Shown: positions 13,523 to 31,658 of the stretch, one piece after another
Numbering within the stretch: position 1 is the first letter of the stretch
Layout: each line of letters begins with the position of its first letter
Assembly: GCA_964481465.1 (NCBI GenBank)
Contig: CAYZTL010000001.1
Location: 16,743 to 80,742 of the forward strand
DNA length: 64,000 bases
Source of the DNA: an uncultured Anaerolineales bacterium
GTDB lineage: Bacteria; Chloroflexota; Anaerolineae; Anaerolineales; UBA11858
Direction: 5' to 3'
Translations under genes and position numbers: made by a program
The notes under the pieces: generated by a model
Seen by the model: the letters and a program-made list of their open reading frames with translations, nothing else
The model's database searches: none
Told to the model about the DNA's origin: nothing

Positions 13523-14677
13523 CTAAAATCCCTCAACCTGATGAGGGAAGTAATCCTCGCAATCGCCTTCCCGGTACACATCCGCCGTGCAGCAGTGCAG
13601 CCCACCACCAAAAGGCGACACATCATAAAACGGGACAGGAACAACGTCAAACCCATACGAATCCAACAACTCCATCACCGGTTTCTCGCTGGCCTCCACA
13701 CAGACAGTGTCCGGACCCAGAGAGAGGGTGTTCATGTTCAACCACCAGCTGCAAAAATCATAGGGCTGCTTTTCCTCGAGTGTTGCCTCTGGCGCTTCCA
13801 CTAGCTCCCAATCATTCTTCCTGAACCACTCAAATTCTCTCTCATCAAGCGGAGGCCGCGTGGGATTGATCAGTGCAAATCCCGGCCGCAGGGGTACGAG
13901 CGTTGAGTCCAAATGCCACGGCAGCAGTTCCCTGCGCCCCACCTTGTGGATGCGGTGGTTAGCAAAATGGCGGCGCAGCCAGTCAATCCCGGCATCATTC
14001 GTCACCATCGACTTCTGGACAATCAGGTCTTTCCCAAAACGGACAACATCTGCCGCATCAAATAAGGGCTCTTTCTCGGTGAGTATCCAGTCGCCCCGCT
14101 CCGCACGCTCAAACTTCTCCTCCTCTGTCATCGCATGCCATTCTTCCCACCAGTTTTCCTTATACGACTCTTCCGTCAATCGCGGCTTGGGCGCCGCTTC
14201 AAAGCGAAAATTCGGATCCTCCTTGAAGTATTGCTCAAACAAAGGACGATAACATATAAATTCAAACCAGCGGCTGCGGTAGGACATCGTGGCTTCTAGA
14301 ATCTCATTGCCAACCGTGAGTAAGATGTCCCGCACAGGCGCACAGCCAAACATCGTTTCTTGCTCCCAGTCAGGCGTTGCTACTTTCTGGCTGAAATCAA
14401 TCGGAGTAGGTCGGTCCACGCGAATACCCCGATCTTCAAGGAGTTTGGCGAAATTATCCAACTGTTCGTTCGCCCTGTCTACCATCTCCTGAGGGTAAGG
14501 ACCATACTCCCCTAACGGGAAGCCGTCCTCCGGATAATCCCGCTGAATGGCAATTTCCGGCGCCTGGATCATCGTCCCGTCCGCGCGCCCCACAATCACA
14601 TGCTTCAAGGGATCCCATTCGTTCCAGGAACTCACTTTCGTCTTTCTGGATTCTTCTTGTCCCATATTCATCCTCAC
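13523..14677 (-). CDS. Amidinotransferase, arginine:glycine amidinotransferase (AGAT/GATM)-like, copy 1
   Basis: SSWNEWDPLKHVIVGRA, PVRDILLTVGNEILEATMSYRSRWFE and C-terminal GGGLHCCTADV (catalytic Cys) align with the remembered human AGAT sequence. The track start is GTG (14677). The ATG at 14665, preceded by GTGAGGA, may be the real start. Confidence 0.85.
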   Translation of the reverse strand: MRMNMGQEESRKTKVSSWNEWDPLKHVIVGRADGTMIQAPEIAIQRDYPEDGFPLGEYGPYPQEMVDRANEQLDNFAKLLEDRGIRVDRPTPIDFSQKVATPDWEQETMFGCAPVRDILLTVGNEILEATMSYRSRWFEFICYRPLFEQYFKEDPNFRFEAAPKPRLTEESYKENWWEEWHAMTEEEKFERAERGDWILTEKEPLFDAADVVRFGKDLIVQKSMVTNDAGIDWLRRHFANHRIHKVGRRELLPWHLDSTLVPLRPGFALINPTRPPLDEREFEWFRKNDWELVEAPEATLEEKQPYDFCSWWLNMNTLSLGPDTVCVEASEKPVMELLDSYGFDVVPVPFYDVSPFGGGLHCCTADVYREGDCEDYFPHQVEGF

Positions 14678-14748
14678 TTATATATATAGCTGATCCTTCT
14701 CCACTTTAACGCTTGTCCGCAAAGGGTGGGTCCGATTCTTCTACCGGC

Positions 14749-14783
14749 AATAAAAATACCTGAGTACATGTATCTGCTCAGGT
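14749..14783 (-). terminator. Terminator-like hairpin inside the AGAT 5-prime leader (candidate attenuator), copy 1
   Basis: Minus sense: ACCUGAG-12 nt loop-CUCAGGU followed by AUUUUUAUU. It lies about 72-105 nt upstream of the start codon and about 180 nt downstream of the predicted -10. Confidence 0.35.
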
Positions 14784-14964
14784 AAAAAGTTCAAACACAT
14801 CCGTTGTTTTGGGCGGATATGGGGTTCCCCAAATATTCGGCTGATCGTCGTGGGATTTGGTACAATCAATCATAATCTGAGGGTGTTGCGAACAATGAAT
14901 GTTATCCTTGCTTGTTCGGTAACGATAATACAGAATAGCTAATAAAGCGGGAAAATCGTCTCGT

Positions 14965-15005
14965 AACCATTTATACTGCGGAATATTTGCTAATTCAACG
15001 TGATT
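14965..15005 (-). promoter_or_regulatory. Conserved promoter/operator core, copy B (drives AGAT copy 1)
   Basis: On the minus strand: -35 TTGAAT (14998-14993), 17-nt spacer, -10 TATAAA (14975-14970). Predicted leader is about 290 nt. Confidence 0.6.
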
Positions 15006-15101
15006 AATGTAATAAAATTCGCAGATTTATGTTATTCTCACAATCTTTGAGTGTGTGTTCGTCCAACCAAAAGCAATCGCCCCCTTCGACGCAGCTGCGC
15101 G

Positions 15102-15254
15102 TTAGCTGGCGAGGCAGGAGCGTTTCGCCAGCTTCTCAAGGCTGGCGCGCGCCACATCGTTTTTGGTGAGCACCTGATTGTATGTCAGCTTATCTAACAG
15201 GACGCGCTTGAGTTTCCCGGTCGAATTACAGACAACCCCTTGTTTCTCAGACAT
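15102..15254 (-). CDS. Hypothetical small protein (50 aa from MSEKQGVV...)
   Basis: ORF with a GAGGA-like SD 8 nt upstream of the ATG at 15254. No recognisable motif. Could be a gene fragment at the repeat boundary. Confidence 0.3.
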   Translation of the reverse strand: MSEKQGVVCNSTGKLKRVLLDKLTYNQVLTKNDVARASLEKLAKRSCLAS

Positions 15255-15363
15255 TCTATTGGTCCTCTGGTGCCCACCTCGGGACAATGCAATTGGCAGA
15301 CTATTAGAGAGCCATCGCTTGCTCGGTTAATCGTTTCACATCATATCTTGGAGATTCTGGAGG

Positions 15364-16563
15364 TTAGCCGAGATAAGCTTGAGCGATTGCCATGTGTGCA
15401 GCAGTGCCCTTCAATAGTTGTTCAATCTCAATGTACTCGTCCACGATGTGAGCCAGGGCGCTTTGAGAGGGGCCGAAAATAATGGTTGGAAGCCCCATTT
15501 CTCCGGCGCTAGCACTTCCGTTGGTGCAGTAAGGCGCTGCAAGATAGGTCTCCGGCAATCCAATGGTACGCATACCAACCAGTGCTTTTTGGACAAGCTC
15601 TTCTTCACGTGGTGTAATCCATCCTGGGTGAAAATCTGCCATTCGCAACTGCTCGCCAGTGTAACAAGATAGGACTATGTCAGGGCATTCTACTGACACG
15701 CCCTCTATATCGTTCAAGGCTTCCTGCAGGCCCTCCAGCATACTGGTCTGAGTCTCGCCTGGACCGAGCCGTCGGTCGAAACGGACACGGCATCCGTCCG
15801 GCACGATTGTGTCACCGGGGTAGGGTGATGAGATGATTTCGATAAGTTCTGTGACACCAGGGCCAAGCACATCATCCTCTGGCAGAGGCATGGCACGCAC
15901 GCTCTCGATCACCTCTATCATCTTGTATACCGCATTCAAACCCTTTTGAGGGGTGGAAGTGTGTGCAGCCCGCCCTTGCGTCTTAAGCGTGATACCCGCA
16001 CGGCCTTTCTGGGCATATCCCAGAGTCAGGTTGGAGGGCTCACCGATGACTACCGCATCTGCTGGGTATTCGCGTAGGATGGCGCCCAGTGCAGCGCCTT
16101 CCCACCCTTCCTCGCCAACGCTGGCCGAAACGGTGATCGTCCCATCGAACGCTTCTCGTGAGAGGAAGGCAGCACCACAAATCATAGCTGCCAGTGGTCC
16201 TTTCATGTCTGTTGTGCCTCTGCCCCAGATGCGCCCTTCGGTCACATGTGCCTCAAAGGGAGGATGACGCCAGGAGTCGGGCTGGGTGGCCGCAACGATG
16301 TCAATGTGACCGTCAAAGTGGAGATTCTTGCCTGGCCCACTACCCCACCGCTTTCCTATCACACTGCCGTATTCATCGGTCCATATCTCGTCGTAGCCCA
16401 GCGTTTTCATCCAATGGGCGACCACCCTCCCAGCTTCTTCTTCCTGACCGGCTGGCGACTTGGCCTGGACCAACTCGCGCGTCAGTGCGACAACCTGTTC
16501 CTGTTGTGAACCTGTCAAATTCATGGTGTGCCTCTCTAATTTCCCAAAGATTGGATTGTTCAT
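15364..16563 (-). CDS. M20 family metallohydrolase (ArgE/DapE/YgeY-like)
   Basis: HFDGHIDIV, GRGTTDMKG and GEEGWEG metal/catalytic motifs; a dimerisation-domain insertion; 399 aa. An alternative start is MNLTGSQQEQ at 16524. Confidence 0.85.
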   Translation of the reverse strand: MNNPIFGKLERHTMNLTGSQQEQVVALTRELVQAKSPAGQEEEAGRVVAHWMKTLGYDEIWTDEYGSVIGKRWGSGPGKNLHFDGHIDIVAATQPDSWRHPPFEAHVTEGRIWGRGTTDMKGPLAAMICGAAFLSREAFDGTITVSASVGEEGWEGAALGAILREYPADAVVIGEPSNLTLGYAQKGRAGITLKTQGRAAHTSTPQKGLNAVYKMIEVIESVRAMPLPEDDVLGPGVTELIEIISSPYPGDTIVPDGCRVRFDRRLGPGETQTSMLEGLQEALNDIEGVSVECPDIVLSCYTGEQLRMADFHPGWITPREEELVQKALVGMRTIGLPETYLAAPYCTNGSASAGEMGLPTIIFGPSQSALAHIVDEYIEIEQLLKGTAAHMAIAQAYLG

Positions 16564-16588
16564 GCCATGCTCATAGAGGGAGGGATTG

Positions 16589-16900
16589 CTATCTGCCAGA
16601 GGTTGTTGTCCGTTTTCCCTTACCCGTTGACTGTTGGGTGTCGAGCATGGAGTCTAAGCTCTCGTCAGCGACAAAGATGTGGATACACATTGCGTCACGA
16701 GCGACTTGAGGGTCCCGTTTCTTGATTGCTGCCAGCAGTTCAAAGTGGTCAGGTAAGTCCCGCTGAGGATCGGAAAAAAAAGGACATTAATCTATTCATT
16801 TTCTCCGGAAACTGCTCCACTAATATCTATGCTTTCCATATAATTTCATAGGCAGTTTCACATAAAACGCAATTCCCGAAATGACACTTACACGTTATCG
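16589..16900 (-). pseudogene. Remnant of a GntR-family (FCD domain) regulator
   Basis: A start-less frame reads ...DPQRDLPDHFELLAAIKKRDPQVARDAMCIHIFV...*, which resembles the FCD C-terminal helix pattern EHxxLLxAIxxxDxxxAxxAMxxHL. Upstream frames are broken around a T8 run (16771-16778). No HTH domain is present. Confidence 0.4.
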
Positions 16901-16939
16901 ATGGGCTGGCAGCATTGGGACGAGAACGCCGACGCAGGT

Positions 16940-18919
16940 CTAAGGCTTCCGATCAGCCTCTTTTTCTAATACATAGCGATTCATCCACTCCAGAAGCGCC
17001 TCGTTCTGGGCTCGGCGTACAACCGGTGACCCTTCAATTGATCCTGCATGGGAACTATAGGGAAGACGCAGCATCTCAACAACACAATTGTTGTCTTTGA
17101 GAACAGCATAGAATTGTTCAGATTGTTCTGCGGGACATCGATAATCCTCTTCTGCCTGAATTAGCAATGTGGGTGTTTTACAACGATGCGCGTATGTGAT
17201 CGGGGAGCACCGCCGGTAAACTCCTGGGATTTCATGCGGCAGCCCACCTAATTCCTCTGGAGTGCGTTGAACACCCTGATCGCTGACGCCGTATATAGTC
17301 ACCCAGTTGGTAACTGGATTTTCCGGCACAGCAGCTTTAAAACGATCTGTTTGGCCAACTATCCAACAGGACATATACCCCCCATAGGAGAGCCCACAGC
17401 AGCCCAGGCGATCTGGATCAACAATACCTTTCTCGATGGTGAAATCGATACCCTTCATCAGGTCTTTATAATCAAGATTGCCGTAATCACCAATGATCGC
17501 TGAACTAAAATCGTCCCCATACCCAATTGATCCGCGATAATTAATGAACAGCACTGCGTATCCCGCACCAGCGAGCATGTGATGATCGAAGGAAAATATA
17601 TACCCACAACTGGCGTGAGGCCCACCATGAATATAAAGAACTGCTGGGTAAGGAGCCTCGCTTGTGGGGGGTGTTAATACCCAACCTTCAACTTGAACCC
17701 CATCACTACCGGGAAATGATAATTTTTCAACCTCCGGGATTAGCCAATTACTCCTCAATTCGTCGTTGAGATGAGTAAGTTGTCGCTCGTTGGATCCATC
17801 CAATTCAGAAACAAAAAGATCCACTGGATTGTGGATAGTGCTGACAGCAAAAACCATCCGCCTGGGATCTATGCCAAGTGGCATACAGGTTCGCTCCCCT
17901 GAGATGACGGGATTCCATGTCTCTGGCCCTTCAAGGGCAACGCGGTAGATATGAAGCGCCCCCCCATCTTGGGCTGGAATATAAGCTGTCCTGCCCTCCT
18001 CGCCGATTAAAATCCTTGGTCTCAGCAATGAACCAAGAGGTAGATCGCCATCCAAATCTCCCCCCACAGGAAGCGAAAGACTCGATGTCCTGGAAACCGG
18101 TTCGCCTGCCTGTATATCAGTTACCCACAGATTCTCATTCGAGCCGTCAGGAAGCCCATGCGGGTTCCCTATGAATGCGATATGTTTGCTGTCTGGCATC
18201 CAAACAGCAGAAAAACCATAGCCCCAATCCTTTACAAGGTCAGTAACTTCCCCATCTAGATACACCACTCTTAGAATTGGGCGGACCCTAAAGGAAACCG
18301 GGGTCATCTCAGTCGTAAAGAGGATCTTATCTCCATCGGGTGACCAAACAGGCCTGCTGTTATAGGCCTCATCATGGGTCAGTCGCTTCGGCTTCCCCCC
18401 TTCGACAGAGATGATATATATATCCTGCCCATCCTCTTCCAGATATCCCATCCCATTAACCCGATATATATGGCGGGAAATGCGGTAAGGCTTTGTGCGG
18501 TCTTGGGCTTCAACAGCCGGACAGGCAGCGAAAGCGATATGCTCACCGTCTGGCGACCAAGCAGGACCGTCATTGACGCCCAGGGGCATATCTGTCAACG
18601 GCCATGACTCACCCCCATCCACAGCGATAAGGCGGATTTGTGGTTTATCCTCTCGGGTTGAAAGAAAAGCAATCAATTTGCCATCTGGTGACCAAGCTGG
18701 ATTTGTATCCTGAGCTAATCCTGATGTAAGCTGATTTGAGATGCCCGTTTCAAGAGACAACAGCCAAATGGCAACTTTTTCCTTCTCACCTCCACCATCC
18801 ATAGTGGAAATGGTATAGGCTATAGTCTTTCCATCAGGTGATAGCTGCCCGTCCTGAATGAAATTAAGTTTAAACAAATCCTCGGGTTGTACTGTCCGTA
18901 ACGTTTGCTTCCCGTCCAT
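16940..18919 (-). CDS. S9 family serine peptidase (prolyl oligopeptidase / acylaminoacyl-peptidase type) with N-terminal beta-propeller
   Basis: Repeated SPDG(K/E)xIAF propeller motifs; catalytic GLSYGGYM (GxSxGG) and a C-terminal alpha/beta-hydrolase domain. 659 aa. Confidence 0.88.
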   Translation of the reverse strand: MDGKQTLRTVQPEDLFKLNFIQDGQLSPDGKTIAYTISTMDGGGEKEKVAIWLLSLETGISNQLTSGLAQDTNPAWSPDGKLIAFLSTREDKPQIRLIAVDGGESWPLTDMPLGVNDGPAWSPDGEHIAFAACPAVEAQDRTKPYRISRHIYRVNGMGYLEEDGQDIYIISVEGGKPKRLTHDEAYNSRPVWSPDGDKILFTTEMTPVSFRVRPILRVVYLDGEVTDLVKDWGYGFSAVWMPDSKHIAFIGNPHGLPDGSNENLWVTDIQAGEPVSRTSSLSLPVGGDLDGDLPLGSLLRPRILIGEEGRTAYIPAQDGGALHIYRVALEGPETWNPVISGERTCMPLGIDPRRMVFAVSTIHNPVDLFVSELDGSNERQLTHLNDELRSNWLIPEVEKLSFPGSDGVQVEGWVLTPPTSEAPYPAVLYIHGGPHASCGYIFSFDHHMLAGAGYAVLFINYRGSIGYGDDFSSAIIGDYGNLDYKDLMKGIDFTIEKGIVDPDRLGCCGLSYGGYMSCWIVGQTDRFKAAVPENPVTNWVTIYGVSDQGVQRTPEELGGLPHEIPGVYRRCSPITYAHRCKTPTLLIQAEEDYRCPAEQSEQFYAVLKDNNCVVEMLRLPYSSHAGSIEGSPVVRRAQNEALLEWMNRYVLEKEADRKP

Positions 18920-18987
18920 GTCCTTCCTTGTGCAACAATCAAATCAAAAAAGCTTCAATGCCTTTCTCTACCAACACAAATCCTTTC

Positions 18988-20634
18988 TTATCGTGTAAAC
19001 GTGCGGCAAAATTCGATACCTGAAAGATCTGCGCGGAATGCTTTGTTGTCAACGACGGCACCAAATCGGATTCGCTCTGGCAAGCGATCGTCTCTCCCAA
19101 CCCGAAATAGTCCGTCCTCTAATTCAACTAACACATCTTCCTGTCCTGATGGGTGAACCAGCATAAGAGTACCCTTCCGAAGGATTACCCGGAGATTTGA
19201 ATACCAGGGGTTATGAGTACGATAGTGCCCAAGAAAAGCTTCCCATCCTTCAGGATGATGGAAGCTTGTCGGACCACCGTATTGTTCGTTTGTGTACCAG
19301 TCCGGGCCATGGAAAGCTTCCACAACTTTTCCATCCTCGCGCCTGAAACGGAGAAGGAAAAGTTCGAAGTCCGGATGATTCACATAGAAACAATCCTGAT
19401 CTCGCTGCTGAAGTTCAATGAGCTCCTCGTTATAGGAAAAGATCAGCCGATCCTCCTTAGATTTCAGTTCGAAAGACCGGGGGCTCACCTTTCGATCATT
19501 ACGAGAGGTAATCTGAAAGGTTCCGACATAATCCTTAGCATTTTCAACCTTGTACTGGTCGATCAGGGGGATTTCGGGAAGAGTCTCCTGATTTAAATTG
19601 GCTCGCGCCAGCTCCAATGCGTATTTGATAATCTCTTCATCCGCATGGTCACCAGGAGCGTTCATAAGCACAACCGACCCCAATCCATCTTCCATATCGA
19701 GAAAAATGAAGGCATAATACCCAACCATCCCTCCTCCGTGATAAAAGCAGGTATGTCCATCTAATTCTCGAACCACAAGCCCATACCCGTAGAAAGAGTC
19801 CTTTCCCTCCCCTGCTGATTCTATTACTGGTGTCGTCATCAGATCAAAACTTTCTTCGGACAAGATACGCTCTTGTGGTCCCTTTCCACGATTCAACAGC
19901 ATGCGCAAGTAGGTTGACATATCAGCAACCGTCGAGGCAAGACTGCCTGCGCCTTCTGCATGTTCTAACCATGTCGCAGGAGCCAGGGGGCGGCTGAGAG
20001 ACAAAGGGCGATCATCATAATAAGCCTCATATCCAACAACCAGTCTGTCGCGCGTCTCGTTCTTGACGATAGGCTCAGTCGATGACATCTCCAAAGGATC
20101 GAGGATTCTTTCCTGAATGATATCCCCATAGGGCTGACCAAGTAGATCCTCAAGAATCACCCCAAGTGTTTTATAGCCTGAATTTGAATAATGGAAAAAA
20201 GTTCCGGGGGGAACAGCAGTCTCTGTCTTGCGTAAAGACCAAACCTCATAGTGCGGATCACCCGGAAAGTCAGGACCGGCGATGATTCCAGCAGTGTGGC
20301 TTAGAAGATGGTGTATCGTGATTGGCTCATAATCAGAATTTACAGAGAACCAAGGAAGGTATCGCGTTATGGGCTCATGAAGATCCAATAAACCTTCCTC
20401 CACCAGCTGCAAGATGGCAATGCTGGTAAAAGATTTCCCAATGGACCCAATCTCAAACAGCATCTCCGGTGAAAGAGGTGTTTCCGCTGCTAGATCAGAA
20501 AAACCATGGGTGGATTCATAAATCTGTTCCTCCCGATTGGTCACCGCCACAGCAACAGCAGGGATATTAAAAACCTTCCTATTCTGATCTATGAATTGGT
20601 CCAATCGGGTGTAAGACTCCTCTGAGTATGTCAT
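18988..20634 (-). CDS. Beta-lactamase-fold serine hydrolase, D-aminopeptidase (DAP)/esterase-like, with about 190-aa C-terminal extension
   Basis: SxxK (SIGKSF) and YxN (YSNSGY) motifs of class-C/PBP-like hydrolases. The 548-aa length is compatible with multi-domain DAP-type enzymes. Confidence 0.85.
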   Translation of the reverse strand: MTYSEESYTRLDQFIDQNRKVFNIPAVAVAVTNREEQIYESTHGFSDLAAETPLSPEMLFEIGSIGKSFTSIAILQLVEEGLLDLHEPITRYLPWFSVNSDYEPITIHHLLSHTAGIIAGPDFPGDPHYEVWSLRKTETAVPPGTFFHYSNSGYKTLGVILEDLLGQPYGDIIQERILDPLEMSSTEPIVKNETRDRLVVGYEAYYDDRPLSLSRPLAPATWLEHAEGAGSLASTVADMSTYLRMLLNRGKGPQERILSEESFDLMTTPVIESAGEGKDSFYGYGLVVRELDGHTCFYHGGGMVGYYAFIFLDMEDGLGSVVLMNAPGDHADEEIIKYALELARANLNQETLPEIPLIDQYKVENAKDYVGTFQITSRNDRKVSPRSFELKSKEDRLIFSYNEELIELQQRDQDCFYVNHPDFELFLLRFRREDGKVVEAFHGPDWYTNEQYGGPTSFHHPEGWEAFLGHYRTHNPWYSNLRVILRKGTLMLVHPSGQEDVLVELEDGLFRVGRDDRLPERIRFGAVVDNKAFRADLSGIEFCRTFTR

Positions 20635-20674
20635 TTAATGATCTCTCTTCTGCTTTAGCATGAGAATTGTGAGT

Positions 20675-21655
20675 TTAATTACTGTGTTCTTCCGCAATTT
20701 TCAAAAGTAAAGGGATTTCTACATTGCTGCCACTTACAACCACGGCTGCGTTGTTCCCCAACTTGTCCACTTTTTTTTGAAGAACAGCCGCAATACCCAC
20801 CGCCCCGCCCCCTTCAACGACAAGATGATGTTGCTCCAGGGCAAAGATCATAGCTTCAGCAATCGCTTTTTCTGAGACCAAAACAACATCGTCAACGTAC
20901 TCCTGGGTCATTCGGAAGGTATACTGGTTATTCTCACCGAGGCCCCCTGCCAATGCATGGGCAATGGTCTCTTCTTCTTCCATCTCTATCGGCTTGCCGG
21001 CTTTCAAGCTGTAATACATCACGGGGGCGCGTTCCATTGACACACCAATTACCTGGATATCTGGGTTGGCTGTCTTCAGGGCTAAAGCAATCCCACACAA
21101 CAACCCGCCTCCTGCCAGAGGCACAATGGCTGTATCAATCTCGGGGAGGTCCTCCAGCAACTCCAAGCCGATGGTGCCTTGACCAGCAATGACATAAGGA
21201 TCATCAAACGAGTCAATCATGGTCAGACCCTGCTCTTCCGCCAACTGCAAGGCACGATCCACAGATTCATCGTAGCTCTCACCATACACCTCGACGTGGG
21301 CACCGTGACGGCTGATTGCAGCTACCTTATTATCGGGAGACTTTGTGGATACACAGATCACGGCATTTACATTTAACCTATTTGCCATGTAAGCAACCGC
21401 TTTGCCATGATTACCGCTGGATCCGGTAACAACACCCCGAGCTCTTTCCTCCGGCGTGAGATTGAGCATCTTATTAGCAGCCCCGCGAACCTTAAACGAG
21501 CCTGTCTCCTGCAGATTCTCAAGTTTTAAGTGAACCGAACCGCAAGCACGATCCACCATCGTCGGAGAGTTGACAAGCGGGGTTCTCCGGATGATAGGTG
21601 TAATTTTCTTTCTCGCCTGGTATATATCGCGTAACGTCACATCTGGAACAGTCAT
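20675..21655 (-). CDS. PLP-dependent threonine/serine ammonia-lyase family protein (dehydratase or racemase-like)
   Basis: LENLQETGSFKVRGAANK (PLP Lys), GSSGNHG, GGGGL glycine loop. 326 aa with no ACT regulatory domain. Confidence 0.85.
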   Translation of the reverse strand: MTVPDVTLRDIYQARKKITPIIRRTPLVNSPTMVDRACGSVHLKLENLQETGSFKVRGAANKMLNLTPEERARGVVTGSSGNHGKAVAYMANRLNVNAVICVSTKSPDNKVAAISRHGAHVEVYGESYDESVDRALQLAEEQGLTMIDSFDDPYVIAGQGTIGLELLEDLPEIDTAIVPLAGGGLLCGIALALKTANPDIQVIGVSMERAPVMYYSLKAGKPIEMEEEETIAHALAGGLGENNQYTFRMTQEYVDDVVLVSEKAIAEAMIFALEQHHLVVEGGGAVGIAAVLQKKVDKLGNNAAVVVSGSNVEIPLLLKIAEEHSN

Positions 21656-21676
21656 TCACACCCTCACATAATGATG

Positions 21677-23260: not shown

Positions 23261-23396
23261 ATTTATCTTTTTATCTTTCCCAACTGAATTGCCCAGATCA
23301 TTTGGTATTAATGATTACTCTTTCCAGCAACATCCGTAAAATGGTGTAATTCAAAATCAAGATATAAATCAGTGACGAAAAGTTGATTATACTTTT

Positions 23397-24431: not shown

Positions 24432-24436
24432 AATTA

Positions 24437-26326
24437 TTACTCAACCAGGTGACAGGCTACATAGTGGTCCGTGTCGACACGTTTCAGTTTTGGCGTCTTT
24501 TCGCTACAAATATCAATCTTGCGATGGCAGCGAGGTTCAAAACGACATCCCGTCGGCAACGTATCAAGTGAGGGCGGGAAGCCAGGAATTGTGGCTAAAT
24601 CTGAGTTGGGTTTATCTATATCAGGAAAAGCTTCAAGGAGCCGCTGAGTATAGGGGTGTTGGGGGTCGTTATAGATAGTGTCTACACTCGCGTACTCTGC
24701 AGTTTTGCCACAGTACATTACCAACACTTCATCGCATACTTCGGCAACTACCCCTAAATTGTGGGTTACCATGATAATAGATAATCCCAAATCTTTCTGC
24801 AGATCCTGTAATAGATCAAGAATTTGAGCTTGGATCATGACATCAAGAGCAGTAGTCGGTTCATCGGTAATCAGAATATCAGGCGAGCAGGACAAGGCCA
24901 TGGCGATCATCGCTCGTTGACGCATCCCGCCGCTGTATTGATGAGGGTACTGATTAGCTAAAGCGGGAGAGATTCCTACTCGCTCTAACAACTCCTGGAC
25001 GCGATGTTCGGCAGATTTTCTGTCGGTGCGTTTTCCATGAAGCATAATCGATTCCGCAATTTGATCGCCAACCTTTCGCACAGGATTGAGAGCATTCATT
25101 GCTCCTTGGAACACGAGAGATATATCATTCCATCTATACTCTCGCATTTCTTGTTCAGAAATTTTCAAGAGATCGTTATCCTTATAACGAATTTCGCCTG
25201 ATGTAATTCGCCCTTCGGCGGGAAGCAATCGCAACACACCAAGCATAGCCGTAGTTTTCCCACATCCACTTTCACCTACCAACCCCAGTATGCTTCCTTT
25301 CTTCAAGCTAAAACTTAAATCTTCTACCGCTTGCAGCTCGGTCTCATCATCAAGCAAATAACTGACAGAAAGATTCCGCACGCCTAATATCTCGTTTTCC
25401 TTTTCGGGTTCCTTTTTAGATTGTTCTCCGACAAATAGGGACAACATGCGGTTTGCATCAAAAAGATGGTGTGTCTCAAGCCTGGGGTTGACGATATCTT
25501 CAAGTGTTCTTCCCAACAGTACTAGTCCCATACTAACCCAGACGATAGCAAATCCCGGAGGTAGTAAAAACCACCAGGCCCTACGGCTGAGACCTCGCTC
25601 AAAGGCGAAATTGAGCATCATGCCCCAGCTTACTAATGTGGGGTCTCCAAGGCCAAGGAAGCTGAGGGAAGATTCAGCGATGATGGCGCCTGATATATCC
25701 AGTACAGACATTGTTAGAACAATAGGGATAACTTGTGGTAGCACATGTCGAAGAATAATGCGGAGATTACTTGCCCCGATCGCTCGTGCGCGTTCAACAA
25801 ATTTGCGTTCCTTGATAGAAACCACTTGTGAGCGAACCAGCCGCGCAATGGATGTCCAACCAAGCAGGCCTATTACCAAAATGATTTTCCACAGCCCTCG
25901 CCCCCACAAAGAGATGATGACCAACATCAATGGCAGAGAGGGTATGACCATGAGGAAATCCACCACCCGCATTAACAAGTTTCCAATCTTGCCCCCATAA
26001 TAACCAGACACCAAGCCAACAGTTGTGCCGAAAAACAATGACATAAAAGAGGCCATAAAGCCAACCATTAAAGAAACACGTGCACCATAGATTAACTGGC
26101 TTAATACGTCCTTACCTGCATCATCACGGCCAAGCAAATGCTCAGAATCAGGCGGAGCGAGAATGTCTCCTGGTTCTACATCGATCTGAACGTCGGGATC
26201 ATAGGGTGCCAGCAAGGGGGCAAATATAGCAACAATTACCACAAATAGAAGCATCAATAACCCGAGTATGCCCATCGGCTTTTGTTGGAAGCCGCTCCAT
26301 ATTTCTTTCACTTGGTTCATAGCCAC
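24437..26326 (-). CDS. Fused peptide ABC transporter permease (DppC-like) and ATP-binding protein (DppD-like)
   Basis: The N-terminal ~300 aa are a membrane domain (ARAIGASNLRIILRHVLPQ EAA-like loop). The C-terminal domain has GESGCGKTT, YSGGMRQR, ILITDEPTTALD and GCRFEPRC. Confidence 0.88.
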   Translation of the reverse strand: MAMNQVKEIWSGFQQKPMGILGLLMLLFVVIVAIFAPLLAPYDPDVQIDVEPGDILAPPDSEHLLGRDDAGKDVLSQLIYGARVSLMVGFMASFMSLFFGTTVGLVSGYYGGKIGNLLMRVVDFLMVIPSLPLMLVIISLWGRGLWKIILVIGLLGWTSIARLVRSQVVSIKERKFVERARAIGASNLRIILRHVLPQVIPIVLTMSVLDISGAIIAESSLSFLGLGDPTLVSWGMMLNFAFERGLSRRAWWFLLPPGFAIVWVSMGLVLLGRTLEDIVNPRLETHHLFDANRMLSLFVGEQSKKEPEKENEILGVRNLSVSYLLDDETELQAVEDLSFSLKKGSILGLVGESGCGKTTAMLGVLRLLPAEGRITSGEIRYKDNDLLKISEQEMREYRWNDISLVFQGAMNALNPVRKVGDQIAESIMLHGKRTDRKSAEHRVQELLERVGISPALANQYPHQYSGGMRQRAMIAMALSCSPDILITDEPTTALDVMIQAQILDLLQDLQKDLGLSIIMVTHNLGVVAEVCDEVLVMYCGKTAEYASVDTIYNDPQHPYTQRLLEAFPDIDKPNSDLATIPGFPPSLDTLPTGCRFEPRCHRKIDICSEKTPKLKRVDTDHYVACHLVE

Positions 26327-26334
26327 GTATTTCC

Positions 26335-27354
26335 TTATTCTGTCCTTACCCTGGGATCCAATATTGAATACAGAAGATCTGCCAGCAAATTAGCGGTGAT
26401 AACGCTGACAGCCAAGAGAAGAAATATCCCCTGCATCATGGGATAATCCCGTTGAGTGACGGCATCATACATTAGCCGCCCTATGCCTGGCCAGGAGAAA
26501 ACGGTCTCTACTTGGATCGCACCACCTACGATATAGCCTAAATTGAGGGCAACAATAGTCACCATGGGCAACATTGCGTTTTTCAATGCATGATCACGTA
26601 GAATTTGGAATGCATTCATACCTTTAGCCTTGGCGGTCAGGATGTAGTCTTCGCTTAGTACTTCCAAAACGCTAGAACGCATGATCATCACATATGAGCT
26701 GGTATATATAATGGCCATAGTAAGCGTAGGTAGAATCAGGTGTTCCCCAACATCAATCCAATATTCCCATCCATGTTCTGGTTTTAATCCTGGTGTGACC
26801 ATTCCTCCTATGGGTAATTGTCCTCCCGCCAAGATGAGGAGAATAATTCCCAAGAAGAATGTGGGGAAAGCCCAAAAGAACAGTGACCAGAGTAAAATGG
26901 ATGTATCTAACCGTGTGCCACGTCGCCAAGCGGCAATTAAACCCAGAACGACACCAAATATAAGTGCTAAGATTTCACCACCCGCCACCAGGAGGACAGT
27001 CCGGCCGACCCTTTCCTTTAATACTTCAGCGACATCTCGGCGGCTGCGATATGAAATACCTAAATTACCTTTCATTAATGCCCGGAAATAAGCGATAAAT
27101 TGTGTATCGAATCCGCCCAGTATATTCCCATTTTTTAATTCATCAATATTTATCCATACAGGTTTATCCAGCCCAAAATCGGCCATGAGCTGTTCCCTAG
27201 CCTCTCTCGTCAAACGCGGGCTACGAGCTATTGACTTGACAGGATCGCCCGGGAGGATCCGGAAAAGAAAAAAATTAAAAATAATCACCACGATCAATGT
27301 AATTGCTCTGAATAAGACTTTACGGGCCAGATAGTTACTGCGTTGCATGGGCAC
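26335..27354 (-). CDS. Peptide ABC transporter permease (DppB/OppB-like)
   Basis: 339 aa, six TM segments, TAKAKGMNAFQILRDHALKNA EAA loop. Confidence 0.9.
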   Translation of the reverse strand: MPMQRSNYLARKVLFRAITLIVVIIFNFFLFRILPGDPVKSIARSPRLTREAREQLMADFGLDKPVWINIDELKNGNILGGFDTQFIAYFRALMKGNLGISYRSRRDVAEVLKERVGRTVLLVAGGEILALIFGVVLGLIAAWRRGTRLDTSILLWSLFFWAFPTFFLGIILLILAGGQLPIGGMVTPGLKPEHGWEYWIDVGEHLILPTLTMAIIYTSSYVMIMRSSVLEVLSEDYILTAKAKGMNAFQILRDHALKNAMLPMVTIVALNLGYIVGGAIQVETVFSWPGIGRLMYDAVTQRDYPMMQGIFLLLAVSVITANLLADLLYSILDPRVRTE

Positions 27355-27408
27355 CTCAAAAAACCCTGGTCAGCTCATTAGAGAAATGAGCTGACCAGGT
27401 GCGGAGAT

Positions 27409-29127
27409 TTACTTTACGGGTTTGATGTATCGCACTAAGGTAGACTTCTTAAGAAGATCTCCCCCGGGTATCTCAGTGACAGTAAATCGATCAGAGCGAT
27501 AAGCCTGTGCCAACTTCGGATAGAGCAGGTTGATATACGGGCGGTCCTCATAAAGTACCTCTTGAGCCTCCCATACCAACTCTTTACGTTCCTCTTTATC
27601 CGTCGTGCGGCCTTGCTCTCGGTAGATTTCGTCATACTCCTCATTACAGTATCCGGAGTCGCTGAGGTAATTCTCAACTGCTTTGCACGTGAAGCAATAG
27701 ATAGCGAAATCAGGATCTGGATCCCATCCCCAACCCCATAAGATCAGGTCGAAGTCCCACGAGGGTTCTAGCAGATCGTAAAGTGCGTCATTATCCATCA
27801 GTGTGGGCGGAGCTGAGATTCCAATGGTAGCTAAATTATTGGAAATAACCTCCAGAACACGTGCTGAGCTACCTGTCTCATCAGAATATAGACGATATTC
27901 CATCGGGTTGCCATCGCTGTCTTCTCGTATTCCATCCCCATCGCTGTCCACATAGCCGGCTTCTTCGAGAAGGCGGTTCGCTTCATCGGGGTCATATGGA
28001 AGAGGATCAGTGTTGGGGCTGACCCATTCACCAAAGGCCGGAGGGAGGATGCTTCCAGCTACATCTCCATATCCCGCATAAGCGATATTGATGATCTCTT
28101 GCTTGTTGATGGCATAATCCATAGCTTTACGCACCACTGGGTCGTTGAGACTTTCTGGTTGAGTGCCGTCCGCGTGAGAGTTGATAACCAGATCGTCTAA
28201 ACTGATCGTGTCCATGACAGCGACTTCTATATTCTCCTCTGCTTGAAGGGGTTCTATCGCCGTGAACGGGATTTCGTCGATCATATCAACTTCGCCAGCC
28301 CGAAGCGCTTGAACCATTGCATCCTCAGTTGCGTATTGCTGGATGATGATGCGATCAATCGGAGGTTTGCCACGGAAATAGTCCTCGAACGCTTCGATGA
28401 TCATATACTCATCTTCCACATACTCCACAAGTTTATAGGGGCCGGTTCCGATGAGGGCGCGAGGGTCCTCAAACTCCACAATTTCATCTTTGGACATGCC
28501 TTCCCATACACTGCGGGGAAGGATCCAGGCGTAATGCAGCCGCGCTGTGGTCATAAGGGCTGTTGGCTCTGATACGGTGATCTGAACTGTAGTAGGATCC
28601 AGGGCAACAACCTCCTCGAATCCCTCCACGTAAAGCTCCAGCGGCCCAATATTTCCATCCATCAGGAAGTTTAGGCTCCAGGCGATATCCTCAGCTGTAC
28701 AGGGTGTTCCGTCGTGAAAGGTCAACCCTTCATGTATATTGAACGTCCAAACCAACCCATCATCAGACACAGACCAATCTTTTGCCAGGCCAGGCTCAAA
28801 AGAGGTTAGCCCACTCCATTCAATCAATCCGTCGTAGAAGAGATAGCGAATATTGTAGGACTCCCACCCGGTGGCTGGATTCATCGCATCCCAAATTGTA
28901 GTGACACCAACTCGCATGGTAACCGGTTCGCTCGGGGTGGATTCTTCCTGTGTGGGTTCTTCCTGAGCAGGTTCAGTCGCTTGGGGTTCTTCCTCTGTGG
29001 GTTCTTCCATCTCCTCCACTGCAGTGGGTTCAACAGTCTCAGTCGAAGGTGTACACGCCGCTAAGACGATCAGGATTAATGTCAGGCAAGCAATTACAGT
29101 AACTAGCTTCGATCCTTTTGTCTTCAT
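27409..29127 (-). CDS. ABC transporter substrate-binding lipoprotein, family 5 (peptide/nickel)
   Basis: Signal peptide with lipobox LAAC, an E/P/T-rich linker, then the SBP_bac_5 layout. 572 aa. Confidence 0.9.
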   Translation of the reverse strand: MKTKGSKLVTVIACLTLILIVLAACTPSTETVEPTAVEEMEEPTEEEPQATEPAQEEPTQEESTPSEPVTMRVGVTTIWDAMNPATGWESYNIRYLFYDGLIEWSGLTSFEPGLAKDWSVSDDGLVWTFNIHEGLTFHDGTPCTAEDIAWSLNFLMDGNIGPLELYVEGFEEVVALDPTTVQITVSEPTALMTTARLHYAWILPRSVWEGMSKDEIVEFEDPRALIGTGPYKLVEYVEDEYMIIEAFEDYFRGKPPIDRIIIQQYATEDAMVQALRAGEVDMIDEIPFTAIEPLQAEENIEVAVMDTISLDDLVINSHADGTQPESLNDPVVRKAMDYAINKQEIINIAYAGYGDVAGSILPPAFGEWVSPNTDPLPYDPDEANRLLEEAGYVDSDGDGIREDSDGNPMEYRLYSDETGSSARVLEVISNNLATIGISAPPTLMDNDALYDLLEPSWDFDLILWGWGWDPDPDFAIYCFTCKAVENYLSDSGYCNEEYDEIYREQGRTTDKEERKELVWEAQEVLYEDRPYINLLYPKLAQAYRSDRFTVTEIPGGDLLKKSTLVRYIKPVK

Positions 29128-29280
29128 TTCTTTCTCCTCATTATTGATAGTTAAAGGGAAATTTGAACTTTATAAGGATAGTACAACTATTGTCATGCAG
29201 TACCTCCTTCCCCCAATATAAACTTCCTCCTTCTTCCTCTATTACAAACCTCCCCTCTGTTTATATAGAACACTATGCGT

Positions 29281-29750
29281 TCACGACCCAAGTTCTCGGA
29301 GAGCTATTTGCACAATATTTTCCACCAAATGGCTTGCTAATATCTCCCCTTTTTCAGGTGATGTGTAAGTTGCCTTGTAAAAAACACCTGATTTGGTCAT
29401 GATTTCGTCTGGCGGCGGAAAGATGCTGTATTTAGGTACTCGTTCAGGCTGGTCATCCACTATCTTGTCCTCTCGAACACGTTCCGGTGCAAAGTATTGC
29501 ATGAGTGCAGTCTCTGAAAGGGCAGCATGCTCCATCTCCCACCCCGGAAAACCGTATCAGAGAAAATCTCATCCAATACCATAGCCTGCAATTCCTCGTA
29601 AACCATCAACGCCAGGTTTTTTGGTATCACGACATCAACGTTCAATGGCAAATGAAGCCCATGTTGTTCTAGCGATCCCACTGGGAGAATAATAACTCTT
29701 CGACCAACTTCGTTCTGATATTCCTCCCAAGTCATATGTTCGATAAGCAT
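29281..29750 (-). pseudogene. Creatininase-family (creatinine amidohydrolase fold) gene remnant
   Basis: N-terminal ORF: RVIILPVGSLEQHGLHLPLNVD (family signature). C-terminal ORF: MEHAALSETALMQYFAPERVRED (HAGxxETS-like). The pieces are in different frames and total about 145 aa, versus the ~250 aa I expect for this family. Confidence 0.7.
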
Positions 29751-29852
29751 TTCGTAGTTTCCTATCTGAATGTTTAATAAACTTCAACTCAAAAATACAT
29801 AAACCAAGATCATAGATTTTGCATTCTGGAAACTACAACAAAGCTGAGGAGA

Positions 29853-31007
29853 TCAGAATCCCTCAACCTGATGAGGGAAGTAATCCTCGCAATCGCCTTC
29901 CCGGTACACATCCGCCGTGCAGCAGTGCAGCCCACCACCAAAAGGCGACACATCATAAAACGGGACAGGAACAACGTCAAACCCATACGAATCCAACAAC
30001 TCCATCACCGGTTTCTCGCTGGCCTCCACACAGACAGTGTCCGGACCCAGAGAGAGGGTGTTCATGTTCAACCACCAGCTGCAAAAATCATAGGGCTGCT
30101 TTTCCTCGAGTGTTGCCTCTGGCGCTTCCACTAGCTCCCAATCATTCTTCCTGAACCACTCAAATTCTCTCTCATCAAGCGGAGGCCGCGTGGGATTGAT
30201 CAGTGCAAATCCCGGCCGCAGGGGTACGAGCGTTGAGTCCAAATGCCACGGCAGCAGTTCCCTGCGCCCCACCTTGTGGATGCGGTGGTTAGCAAAATGG
30301 CGGCGCAGCCAGTCAATCCCGGCATCATTCGTCACCATCGACTTCTGGACAATCAGGTCTTTCCCAAAACGGACAACATCTGCCGCATCAAATAAGGGCT
30401 CTTTCTCGGTGAGTATCCAGTCGCCCCGCTCCGCACGCTCAAACTTCTCCTCCTCTGTCATCGCATGCCATTCTTCCCACCAGTTTTCCTTATACGACTC
30501 TTCCGTCAATCGCGGCTTGGGCGCCGCTTCAAAGCGAAAATTCGGATCCTCCTTGAAGTATTGCTCAAACAAAGGACGATAACATATAAATTCAAACCAG
30601 CGGCTGCGGTAGGACATCGTGGCTTCTAGAATCTCATTGCCAACCGTGAGTAAGATGTCCCGCACAGGCGCACAGCCAAACATCGTTTCTTGCTCCCAGT
30701 CAGGCGTTGCTACTTTCTGGCTGAAATCAATCGGAGTAGGTCGGTCCACGCGAATACCCCGATCTTCAAGGAGTTTGGCGAAATTATCCAACTGTTCGTT
30801 CGCCCTGTCTACCATCTCCTGAGGGTAAGGACCATACTCCCCTAACGGGAAGCCGTCCTCCGGATAATCCCGCTGAATGGCAATTTCCGGCGCCTGGATC
30901 ATCGTCCCGTCCGCGCGCCCCACAATCACATGCTTCAAGGGATCCCATTCGTTCCAGGAACTCACTTTCGTCTTTCTGGATTCTTCTTGTCCCATATTCA
31001 TCCTCAC
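29853..31007 (-). CDS. Amidinotransferase, AGAT/GATM-like, copy 2 (protein identical to copy 1)
   Basis: Identical 384-aa translation. The last codon and stop differ (TTC TGA here, TTT TAG in copy 1). Confidence 0.85.
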   Translation of the reverse strand: MRMNMGQEESRKTKVSSWNEWDPLKHVIVGRADGTMIQAPEIAIQRDYPEDGFPLGEYGPYPQEMVDRANEQLDNFAKLLEDRGIRVDRPTPIDFSQKVATPDWEQETMFGCAPVRDILLTVGNEILEATMSYRSRWFEFICYRPLFEQYFKEDPNFRFEAAPKPRLTEESYKENWWEEWHAMTEEEKFERAERGDWILTEKEPLFDAADVVRFGKDLIVQKSMVTNDAGIDWLRRHFANHRIHKVGRRELLPWHLDSTLVPLRPGFALINPTRPPLDEREFEWFRKNDWELVEAPEATLEEKQPYDFCSWWLNMNTLSLGPDTVCVEASEKPVMELLDSYGFDVVPVPFYDVSPFGGGLHCCTADVYREGDCEDYFPHQVEGF

Positions 31008-31078
31008 TTATATATATAGCTGATCCTTCTCCACTTTAACGCTTGTCCGCAAAGGGTGGGTCCGATTCTTCTACCGGC

Positions 31079-31113
31079 AATAAAAATACCTGAGTACATG
31101 TATCTGCTCAGGT
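31079..31113 (-). terminator. Terminator-like hairpin inside the AGAT leader, copy 2
   Basis: Identical to 14749-14783. Confidence 0.35.
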
Positions 31114-31294
31114 AAAAAGTTCAAACACATCCGTTGTTTTGGGCGGATATGGGGTTCCCCAAATATTCGGCTGATCGTCGTGGGATTTGGTACAATCAAT
31201 CATAATCTGAGGGTGTTGCGAACAATGAATGTTATCCTTGCTTGTTCGGTAACGATAATACAGAATAGCAAATAAAGCGGGTAAATCGCCTCGT

Positions 31295-31335
31295 AACCAT
31301 TTATACTGCGGAATATTTGCTATTTCAACGTGATT
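31295..31335 (-). promoter_or_regulatory. Conserved promoter/operator core, copy C (drives AGAT copy 2; back-to-back with lrp paralog 2)
   Basis: On the minus strand: -35 TTGAAA (31328-31323), 17-nt spacer, -10 TATAAA (31305-31300). Confidence 0.6.
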
Positions 31336-31658
31336 AATGTAATAAAATTCGCAGATTTATGTTATTCTCATGATTAATGGGTGCATGTCTCGTCAGTTTG
31401 GATTGCCCGGGACTCTCGTCCGGACACACCTGTTTTACCTGCGCCGTTCACTAAACCCCGCCAGTAAGACATCTCCAGCGTCCCGTCTGTGCTGATATAC
31501 TTATTTGCGGGTGACTGTTGGTTTGGTCAACCTCTAACGCGATTGGATGACCTAAGACTGAGAGTATTCCGGGTTATTCACATATCTAGTGTATATAACA
31601 AACGTATCTACAAAGTAGTCTTGTTCTTCATACGCTCTTAGATCATAAAGGATGAAAA

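What the first reader, a model, noticed from the sequence alone, without database searches (positions are those of the whole stretch)
13527..31370. 1,514-bp direct repeat duplicates an AGAT-like gene together with its leader and promoter, 16,330 bp apart
13527-15040 and 29857-31370 are collinear at a constant offset of 16,330. By eye, 13527-14939 equals 29857-31269 (1,413 bp). The ORF track gives identical 384-aa proteins and identical shadow ORFs. The last 101 bp carry only 4 mismatches (14940, 14952, 14959, 14993). One boundary falls inside the last codon: TTT+TAG in copy 1, TTC+TGA in copy 2. The other boundary is 363 bp upstream of the start, just past the promoter. The flanks are unrelated, and there is no transposase, terminal inverted repeat or target duplication. 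So exactly one functional unit (promoter, leader, CDS) has been copied or homogenised. By contrast, the neighbouring paralogous lrp genes are clearly diverged. This points to a very recent duplication or ongoing gene conversion. The alternative is an assembly artefact.
Basis: seen in the sequence. Interest (0 to 1): 0.65.

Follow-up and report, generated by a model that had tools for sequence, protein, structure and literature searches.

The report
Old gene duplicate kept identical by conversion
A 1.5-kb unit (predicted promoter, leader and an amidinotransferase gene) occurs twice 16 kb apart in an uncultured Anaerolineae-type bacterium; the second copy is old, so the near-identity is best explained by gene conversion, a known process.

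Summary
Window 13527-15040 and 29857-31370 are collinear at an offset of 16,330. They differ at 4 positions only, all within 14940-14993, and the flanks are unrelated. Independent k=31 assemblies of two read sets from the same genome break exactly 30 nt inside the repeat at three of the four junctions, so the repeat is in the reads.

The 'very recent duplication' reading is not supported. Copy 2 (lrpB | AGAT - creatininase remnant - peptide ABC transporter...) is conserved in several relatives. Copy 1 (M20 peptidase - promoter - leader - AGAT - OTCase) is also present, with both junctions, in a sister lineage about 90% identical in DNA. A lineage about 85% identical still keeps a fragment of lrp at the upstream junction.

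Orthologous copies differ by 9% in the coding sequence and 18% in the leader. The two copies in the window differ by 0.26%. Best explanation: an old duplication of [lrp fragment - promoter - leader - AGAT], homogenised recently by gene conversion. The conversion tract is bounded by the limits of homology.

There is no transposase, terminal inverted repeat or target duplication. This is a new example of a known process. A conserved leader with a terminator-like hairpin is a side lead.

The parts
13527..15040 (.). Direct repeat, copy 1 (1,514 bp): predicted promoter + leader + amidinotransferase CDS up to the second base of the last sense codon
29857..31370 (.). Direct repeat, copy 2, offset +16,330
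13523..14665 (-). AGAT1: amidinotransferase-family CDS, 380 aa from the ATG at 14665 (the mechanical GTG ORF runs to 14677)
   Evidence: PDB AGAT 1jdw/1jdx E about 3e-77, with Cys/His/Asp catalytic motifs aligned. The 380-aa form is the public gene call.
29853..30995 (-). AGAT2: identical protein, stop codon TGA instead of TAG
14970..14998 (-). Predicted sigma-70-like promoter, copy 1: TTGAAT (14998-14993), 17-nt spacer, TATAAA (14975-14970). The mismatch at 14993 is the last base of the -35 hexamer.
   Evidence: Read from the sequence. The core CCGCAGTATAAATGG occurs 3 times in the window against 0.02 expected. Not reported by the consensus scan.
31300..31328 (-). Predicted promoter, copy 2: TTGAAA-17-TATAAA
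14666..14963 (-). About 300-nt 5' leader, copy 1 (copy 2 is at 30996-31293). Long blocks are conserved in relatives.
14748..14783 (-). Terminator-like hairpin plus U-run inside the leader (copy 2 at 31078-31113)
   Evidence: The stem is kept in L167 and L162, with one compensatory change.
14940..14993 (.). The 54-nt segment that holds all four differences between the copies
   Evidence: Probability that four random changes cluster this tightly is 1.8e-4.
15041..29856 (-). Unique 14.8-kb block between the repeats: creatininase remnant, Opp/Dpp-type ABC transporter (SBP 27409-29127, 26335-27354, 24437-26326, 23397-24431), amidohydrolase, EutB-like dehydratase, beta-lactamase-family hydrolase, S9 peptidase, M20 YgeY-like hydrolase (15364-16524)
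   Evidence: An independent contig spans 15011-29886.
29287..29750 (-). Remnant of a creatininase-family gene. Residues 1-71 and 156-244 are left; an internal stretch of about 270 bp is deleted.
   Evidence: The gene is intact in L084 and L177.
31659..32150 (+). lrpB, an Lrp/AsnC-family regulator transcribed divergently from AGAT2
   Evidence: The arrangement is conserved in L162.
12322..13323 (-). Ornithine carbamoyltransferase, immediately downstream of AGAT1. It is followed by a conserved 447-aa protein of unknown function (10956-12299).
   Evidence: The junction is conserved in L168/L169.
6703..6800 (-). Third, diverged copy (74-77%) of the promoter element. It lies between lrpA (7086-7577, +) and a PLP-dependent enzyme gene (4945-6408, -).

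Best explanation
The two copies are old paralogues that gene conversion has recently made identical. They are not a fresh duplication.

Inferred history:
1. In an ancestor of this Anaerolineae-type clade, a segment running from inside the lrp regulator gene, through the lrp-AGAT intergenic region (predicted promoter, about 300-nt leader), to the AGAT stop codon was copied to a site downstream of the M20 hydrolase gene and upstream of the OTCase gene.
2. The lrp fragment was later lost in the branch leading to the window genome.
3. Since then, homologous recombination between the two direct copies has repeatedly transferred sequence non-reciprocally.
4. The most recent tract covers at least 13527-14939. 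It ends on one side where homology ends (the stop codon). The last 101 bp (14940-15040) carry 4% divergence left from an earlier event.

Consequence (inferred): both halves of a peptide/amino-acid utilisation gene set are headed by the same predicted promoter, leader and enzyme. These halves are AGAT2-transporter-peptidases and AGAT1-OTCase-unknown-aminotransferase. In one relative they sit behind a single AGAT.

What is shown and what is inferred: the repeat, its presence in the reads, the orthology of both loci in relatives and the excess within-genome identity are shown. The conversion mechanism, the promoter, the co-regulation and the origin of the duplication are inferred.
For: (1) The repeat is real in the reads. 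Logan contig SRR7048218_32484 (14,876 bp) maps to window 15011-29886. SRR7048220_142326 ends at 15011. SRR7048218_90708 starts at 13556. All match the window at 100%, and all ends lie exactly 30 nt inside the repeat.

(2) Copy-2 context is conserved in relatives. L162 has o223-lrp-leader-AGAT. L089/L090 have AGAT-SBP-ABC-amidohydrolase-EutB. L144 and L082 share the copy-2 downstream flank.

(3) Copy-1 context is conserved too. L167 is 90.0% identical over 11.2 kb of transporter-peptidase-M20. It continues through the spacer, promoter, leader and 1,022 nt of AGAT, and aligns to window 15088-13644, which is 48 nt beyond the repeat boundary. L168/L169, from the same samples as L167, carry the AGAT 3' end, TAG, the conserved spacer and OTCase. 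L165 (about 85% identical) has M20, an lrp fragment (aa 41-115, E 5e-10), the intergenic region, the promoter element and the leader.

(4) Window versus L167: the CDS has 91 differences in 1,022 nt, 65 of the differing codons are synonymous, and third-position identity is 80%. Promoter + leader identity is 82.3%. Window copy 1 versus copy 2: 0 differences in the CDS and 4 in 375 nt of promoter + leader.

(5) The four differences cluster within 54 nt (P about 2e-4), as expected at the edge of a conversion tract.

(6) In the sister genome the copy-1 contig runs unbroken through the leader and most of the CDS. It breaks only near the 3' end. This suggests that there the paralogues share only a short identical tract.

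(7) Identity bounded by the limits of homology is the documented behaviour of bacterial gene conversion (PMC5485169).
Against: - The second (copy-2-type) AGAT of the sister genomes was not recovered. The divergence expected between unconverted paralogues is therefore inferred, not measured.
- The four closest AGAT sequences (window, L167, L081, L082) are all 89-93% identical whatever their locus type. The duplication could therefore be only slightly older than this clade.
- The lrpB-side junction could not be checked in the independent assemblies.
- Junction evidence alone cannot separate the integrated arrangement from a chromosome with one copy plus a 16.3-kb circle, or from a tandem amplification.
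- L081, from the same metagenome as L165, shows a different order (S9 peptidase-AGAT-SBP) that the model does not explain.
Confidence: 0.8

Rival explanations
1. Very recent de novo duplication: a single event in the window lineage copied the 1,514-bp unit, and four point mutations followed.
For: There is 99.7% identity with sharp ends and no homology in the flanks.
Against: The copy-1 locus has the same upstream flank and the same stop-codon junction in L167/L168/L169. L165 carries an extra lrp fragment at the same site. These lineages are 10-15% diverged in DNA. The four mismatches cluster in 54 nt (P about 2e-4).
Confidence: 0.05
2. Assembly-level artefact or alternative topology. The genome has one chromosomal AGAT (lrpB-AGAT-OTCase) plus a 16.3-kb circular or tandemly amplified AGAT-transporter-peptidase unit. 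Alternatively, the assembler resolved a graph loop wrongly.
For: All these topologies give the same junction set. A 1.5-kb exact repeat cannot be spanned by ordinary short-read pairs. The independent contig is exactly the loop edge.
Against: The block carries no replication, partition or recombinase genes. The M20-to-leader and AGAT-to-OTCase junctions are fixed and diverging in step with the flanks in two other lineages. That fits a stable chromosomal arrangement.
Confidence: 0.08
3. Mobile element or gene cassette: the unit moved by transposition or site-specific recombination.
For: The AGAT CDS is found in many different neighbourhoods in relatives, and the boundary lies at the stop codon.
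Against: There is no transposase, integrase, terminal inverted repeat or target duplication. The longest shared words in the flanks are 4-5 nt. The ends match 11/40, which is the random level.
Confidence: 0.02

Closest known systems
Concerted evolution of the duplicate tuf genes (tufA/tufB) of Salmonella by gene conversion (PMC5485169)
   Same: Two copies of a gene in one genome are kept nearly identical by non-reciprocal homologous recombination. Conversion proceeds until it meets the bounds of homology.
   Different: Here the unit includes a predicted promoter and a 300-nt leader as well as the CDS. The copies are direct repeats only 16 kb apart. The gene is an accessory metabolic enzyme in an uncultured Anaerolineae-type bacterium. 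Conversion is inferred from comparative data, not observed.
Long-lasting concerted evolution of paralogues in prokaryotes (PMC6053082) and homogenisation of rRNA operons (PMC8022953)
   Same: It meets the defining pattern: paralogues within a genome are more alike than orthologues between species.
   Different: Persistence is shown only over about 10-15% DNA divergence, not over deep time. In the sister genome homogenisation appears partial.
L-arginine:glycine amidinotransferase family (PDB 1JDW/1JDX; also SxtG, HsvA, StrB1)
   Same: Full-length similarity (E about 3e-77, residues 9-373). The catalytic Cys (GGGLHCCT), His (PWHLD) and Asp (FDAAD) motifs are aligned.
   Different: Substrates are unknown. 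The genomic partners here (creatininase-family gene, OTCase, peptide transporter, peptidases) are not those of creatine, saxitoxin or streptomycin pathways.
Direct-repeat-flanked duplication/amplification units (RecA-dependent unequal recombination; established knowledge, not tested here)
   Same: Two 1.5-kb direct repeats flank a 14.8-kb block. Recombination between them would delete or amplify that block. The deletion product, lrp-AGAT-OTCase, resembles the single-AGAT layout in L177.
   Different: No evidence of copy-number variation was available.

Membership tests
Concerted evolution by gene conversion | Paralogues within the genome are more similar to each other than to orthologues in related genomes | tested here: met
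   Copy 1 versus copy 2: 4 differences in 1,514 nt. Copy 1 versus the orthologous L167 copy: 8.9% (CDS) and 17.7% (promoter + leader).
Concerted evolution by gene conversion | Both loci predate the split from the compared genomes (orthologous flanks at both loci) | tested here: met
   Copy-1 flanks are in L167, L165, L168 and L169. Copy-2 flanks are in L162, L144, L082, L089 and L090. No single relative was shown to carry both copies on recovered contigs.
Concerted evolution by gene conversion | The identity tract ends at the limits of homology, or shows a step in divergence inside the homologous region | tested here: met
   The 3' end is at the stop codon, where the flanks differ. There is a step from 0% to 4% divergence at 14939/14940, inside the region of homology.
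Concerted evolution by gene conversion | Direct demonstration of non-reciprocal transfer (donor unchanged, recipient changed) | not testable with these tools
   This needs population or experimental data.
Recent segmental duplication | The second copy is absent at the orthologous site in close relatives | tested here: not met
   It is present in L167 (about 90% DNA identity) and L165 (about 85%).
Transposon / IS / integron cassette | Transposase or integrase, terminal inverted repeats or an attC-like site, and a target-site duplication | tested here: not met
Assembly duplication artefact | Junctions not supported by reads | tested here: not met
   Three of four junctions are supported by independent k=31 contigs from two runs, and each contig ends 30 nt inside the repeat. 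The fourth junction and the topology were not testable.
Amidinotransferase (AGAT) family | Full-length homology and the Cys-His-Asp catalytic triad | tested here: met
Known riboswitch or leader families (Rfam) | A match of the leader to a curated covariance model | tested here: not met
   There is no hit at gathering threshold. The best hit at E<5 is a chance snoRNA match.

The most novel reading that the evidence does not exclude
The duplicated 375-nt upstream region is an undescribed regulatory module. It would combine an Lrp-type operator/promoter with a structured leader that has an intrinsic terminator, working as an attenuator or riboswitch-like switch. In this reading the two copies mark an operon that was split into two co-regulated halves. 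Gene conversion would keep the two control regions and the enzyme in register. The 1.5-kb repeats would also make the 14.8-kb peptide-utilisation block an excisable or amplifiable unit.
Probability: 0.2. Interest if true: 0.55.

Novelty: new member of a known kind. Interest (0 to 1): 0.35.

Why it matters
This is a clean, well-bounded example of concerted evolution outside model organisms. It involves a whole expression unit (predicted promoter, leader, CDS) rather than a coding sequence alone. The age of the duplication can be bracketed from metagenomic relatives.

It also carries a practical warning. Near-identical repeats in a genome need not be young, and they break short-read assemblies at exactly predictable points.

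The biology of the amidinotransferase and its conserved leader in Anaerolineae-type bacteria is unknown. It may be worth a separate look.

Tried and rejected
- **Rfam:** searches of the whole window and of the leader found no known RNA family in the repeat.
- **Promoter/terminator scan:** the consensus scan found nothing in the leader. The promoter was read by eye and remains a prediction.
- **Other AGAT remnants in the window:** none found.
- **Copy-1 flanks:** BLAST of 15041-15363 and 13324-13526 against the first 162 loci gave nothing. Orthologues appeared only after neighbour-protein searches.
- **lrpB-side junction:** lrpB and the 380-aa AGAT could not be located by exact-product look-up, so this junction and the source record name stayed unverified.
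- **Run accession:** a literature search found no paper.
- **P0004 (84% AGAT):** it lies in an unrelated GntR context and was not the sister genome's second copy.
- **Leader homologues:** nhmmer with the leader alignment found none beyond window x2, L167, L162 and L165. Covariation support is therefore thin.
- **Campbell-type integration of a circle, or tandem operon duplication followed by reciprocal gene loss:** both were considered as the origin of the duplication. Neither can be distinguished with the data, and I do not claim either.
Full report
**1. Observation**

The repeat is exactly as described. Window 13527-15040 and 29857-31370 are collinear at offset 16,330. A base-by-base comparison finds only four mismatches (14940, 14952, 14959, 14993). 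Identity drops to the random level outside both ends.

Both minus-strand ORFs give the same protein. Homologues are 379-380 aa, and the public gene call for this genome is the 380-aa form starting MGQEES. The likely start is therefore 14665/30995, and the repeat reaches 375 bp upstream of it.

The 3' boundary falls in the last sense codon: TTT TAG versus TTC TGA. There are no inverted repeats, no target duplication and no terminal inverted repeats. No transposase or recombinase domain occurs among the genes of the interval.

**2. What the unit is**

The protein is a full-length member of the amidinotransferase family. It matches human AGAT (1JDW/1JDX) at E about 3e-77, and also SxtG, HsvA and StrB1. 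The catalytic Cys, His and Asp motifs are aligned.

The upstream 375 nt contain a 98-nt element that occurs three times in the window: 14948-15045, 31278-31375, and a 74-77% identical copy at 6703-6800 next to the paralogous regulator lrpA. Its invariant core, CCGCAGTATAAATGG, is found 3 times against 0.02 expected.

Read on the minus strand, the core forms a sigma-70-like promoter: TTGAAT (TTGAAA in copy 2), 17 nt, TATAAA. This is a prediction. The consensus scanner rejects it because the -10 hexamer ends in A. One of the four mismatches (14993) is the last base of the -35 hexamer.

The leader of about 300 nt has no Rfam match. It is nevertheless strikingly conserved in relatives and ends in a hairpin plus U-run at 14748-14783 / 31078-31113.

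**3. Gene neighbourhood (all on the minus strand)**

The order is: lrpB (divergent, +) | AGAT2 - creatininase-family remnant - Opp/Dpp-type ABC transporter - amidohydrolase - EutB-like dehydratase - beta-lactamase-family hydrolase - S9 peptidase - M20 YgeY-like hydrolase - AGAT1 - ornithine carbamoyltransferase - conserved 447-aa protein - split class-III aminotransferase.

The closest relatives of the AGAT are Anaerolineae/Anaerolineales MAGs.

**4. Is the repeat an assembly artefact?**

The source genome's reads were also assembled independently (Logan, k=31).

| Contig | Maps to window | End relative to the repeat |
|---|---|---|
| SRR7048218_32484 (14,876 bp) | 15011-29886 | 30 nt inside, at both ends |
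| SRR7048220_142326 | ends at 15011 | 30 nt inside |
| SRR7048218_90708 | 13556-7175 | starts 30 nt inside |

All are 100% identical to the window. Only the 15011-26524 part of the first contig was held and aligned. Its start at 29886 follows from the contig length and the stored range.

Ends lying exactly k-1 = 30 nt inside the repeat are what a de Bruijn graph produces at a true branch. The reads of two runs therefore contain three junctions: M20-side to repeat, repeat to creatininase remnant, and repeat to OTCase. The lrpB-side junction could not be retrieved.

Junctions alone cannot tell the integrated arrangement from one chromosomal copy plus a 16.3-kb circle, or from a tandem amplification. 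The block has no replication or recombination genes, and its junctions are stably inherited in other lineages (section 5). I therefore consider the integrated arrangement much the most likely.

**5. Which locus is ancestral? Both.**

*Copy 2.* Its context recurs in relatives:
- L162 has o223 - lrp (88% to lrpB) - a homologous 650-bp intergenic region/leader (74%) - AGAT.
- L089/L090 have AGAT - SBP - permeases - ATPases - amidohydrolase - EutB.
- L144 and L082 share the copy-2 downstream flank.

*Copy 1.* Its context recurs as well:
- L167 is from a different read set and is 90.0% identical over 11.2 kb. It runs from the transporter through M20, a spacer, the promoter element and the leader into 1,022 nt of AGAT. 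Its alignment to the window continues to 15088, which is 48 nt beyond the repeat boundary and into copy-1-specific flank.
- L168/L169, from the same samples, begin 33 nt before the end of AGAT. They continue through TAG and a conserved spacer into OTCase (92% aa), the 447-aa protein (95%) and an intact aminotransferase.
- L165 (about 85% identical) has M20, 170 bp of conserved spacer, a fragment of an lrp gene on the opposite strand (residues 41-115, E 5e-10), the lrp-side intergenic sequence, the promoter element and the leader.

The duplicated segment therefore originally ran from inside lrp to the AGAT stop codon. It predates the split of these lineages. The present upstream boundary at 15040 arose by later loss of the lrp part in the common ancestor of the window genome and L167.

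**6. Why gene conversion**

Orthologous copy-1 sequences (window versus L167) differ at 91 of 1,022 CDS positions. Of the differing codons, 65 are synonymous and 16 non-synonymous, and third-position identity is 80%. The promoter + leader differs by 17.7%.

Two copies that already existed at that split and evolved independently should differ by at least as much. They differ at 0 of 1,143 CDS positions and 4 of 375 upstream positions.

The four differences lie within 54 nt. For four random changes in 1,514 nt, that clustering has P = 1.8e-4. The pattern is a step from 0% to 4% divergence at 14939/14940. It fits a most recent conversion tract that started at the 3' limit of homology and ended near 14940, laid over an older homogenisation that reached 15040. 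Comparison with L167, L165 and L162 at the four sites suggests derived changes in both copies.

In the sister genome the copy-1 contig is unbroken through the leader and most of the CDS and breaks only near the 3' end. The OTCase-side contig starts about 30 nt inside AGAT in two runs. This suggests the paralogues there share only about 140 nt of exact identity. That is an inference from contig ends, not a measurement.

Tracts bounded by the limits of homology are the documented behaviour of bacterial gene conversion in the tuf model (PMC5485169). 'Paralogues closer than orthologues' is the standard criterion for concerted evolution (PMC6053082).

**7. Functional reading (inferred)**

In L177 (AGAT 81%, OTCase 83%) a single AGAT, next to an lrp gene, heads creatininase - Bmp remnant - OTCase - 447-aa protein - SBP. 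One AGAT there precedes both gene sets that are separated in the window.

In the window clade each set has its own copy of predicted promoter, leader and AGAT. The likely effect is that the transporter/peptidase genes and the OTCase group respond to the same regulator and leader signal, with AGAT made from both.

How the duplication arose cannot be decided. The candidates are tandem duplication of the operon with reciprocal losses, re-integration of an excised circle, or a direct 2-kb copy. The direct repeats also make the 14.8-kb block deletable or amplifiable by homologous recombination.

**8. What does not fit**

L081, from the same metagenome as L165, has the closest AGAT (95% aa). It shows S9 peptidase - 160 bp - AGAT - creatininase 3' remnant - SBP, without M20 or the leader. 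This may be another strain or a secondary rearrangement. I could not resolve it.

The four closest AGAT sequences are 89-93% identical whatever their locus type. The duplication may therefore be only a little older than the clade, or all lineages may be homogenising.

**9. Verdict**

The interpretation 'homogenised by gene conversion' is supported. 'Very recent duplication' is not supported, and 'assembly artefact' is unlikely. This is a new example of a known process, and interest is moderate to low. The conserved leader is the most promising side lead.

Noticed in passing
window 14666-14963 and 30996-31293 (minus strand); L167 11575-11875; L162 7905-8210: The 300-nt AGAT leader is highly conserved in blocks across lineages whose other non-coding DNA is 75-82% identical. 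It folds into several hairpins and ends in a terminator-like hairpin plus U-run about 80 nt (83 nt) before the ATG start codon. Four pairs show compensatory changes in only three sequences, and there is no Rfam match. It may be an attenuator or riboswitch-like element.
   Followed up: partly
window 6703-6800, 7086-7577, 4945-6408: A third, diverged copy of the promoter element sits between lrpA (85% to lrpB) and a 487-aa PLP-dependent (cysteine synthase/SbnA-like) gene. The Lrp + promoter module is thus used three times within 30 kb.
   Followed up: partly
window 29287-29750 (minus strand): This is a remnant of a creatininase-family gene with an internal deletion of about 270 bp. The gene is intact (245 aa) directly downstream of AGAT in many relatives (L084, L177, L178), so AGAT-creatininase is a conserved pair.
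   Followed up: partly
window 9422-10670 (minus strand): A class-III aminotransferase is split into two ORFs (198 + 214 aa). It is intact (420 aa) in the sister genome (L168/L169). The split is also present in the independent contig of the source genome (L166), so it is probably a real pseudogene.
   Followed up: partly
window 10956-12299 (minus strand): A conserved 447-aa protein follows AGAT or OTCase in several relatives (L011, L095, L177, L168). It has only a weak partial CobW-domain hit and a weak match to cyclic 2,3-diphosphoglycerate synthetase (E 0.0014). Its function is unknown.
   Followed up: partly
L084 1556-2293 and 5588-5770: In a relative, a Bmp-type ABC transporter module lies between an intact creatininase gene and a second copy of the creatininase 3' end. 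This is another transporter block flanked by a direct partial duplication, as in the window.
   Followed up: no
L002, L004, L005, L093, L094, L096: Anaerolineae MAGs and metagenome contigs often carry two or three diverged amidinotransferase paralogues (48-75% identity) in tandem or within a few kb.
   Followed up: no
L081 (JGI 3300022699): An alternative gene order, S9 peptidase - AGAT - creatininase 3' remnant - SBP, occurs in the same metagenome that yields the M20 - lrp fragment - leader contig L165. The reason is unexplained.
   Followed up: partly
window 53230-53458 (+) and 44855-44928 (+): A T-box leader (99 bits) lies upstream of a 601-aa ORF (53493-55298), and there is a tRNA gene. 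Both are unrelated to the finding.
   Followed up: no
L091, L098, L102, L108, L124, L144, L162, L001: Many short-read metagenome contigs of this clade end inside the AGAT gene. L162 and L144 overlap by 54 identical nt there. This is consistent with partially identical AGAT copies (or strain mixtures) being common in these populations.
   Followed up: no
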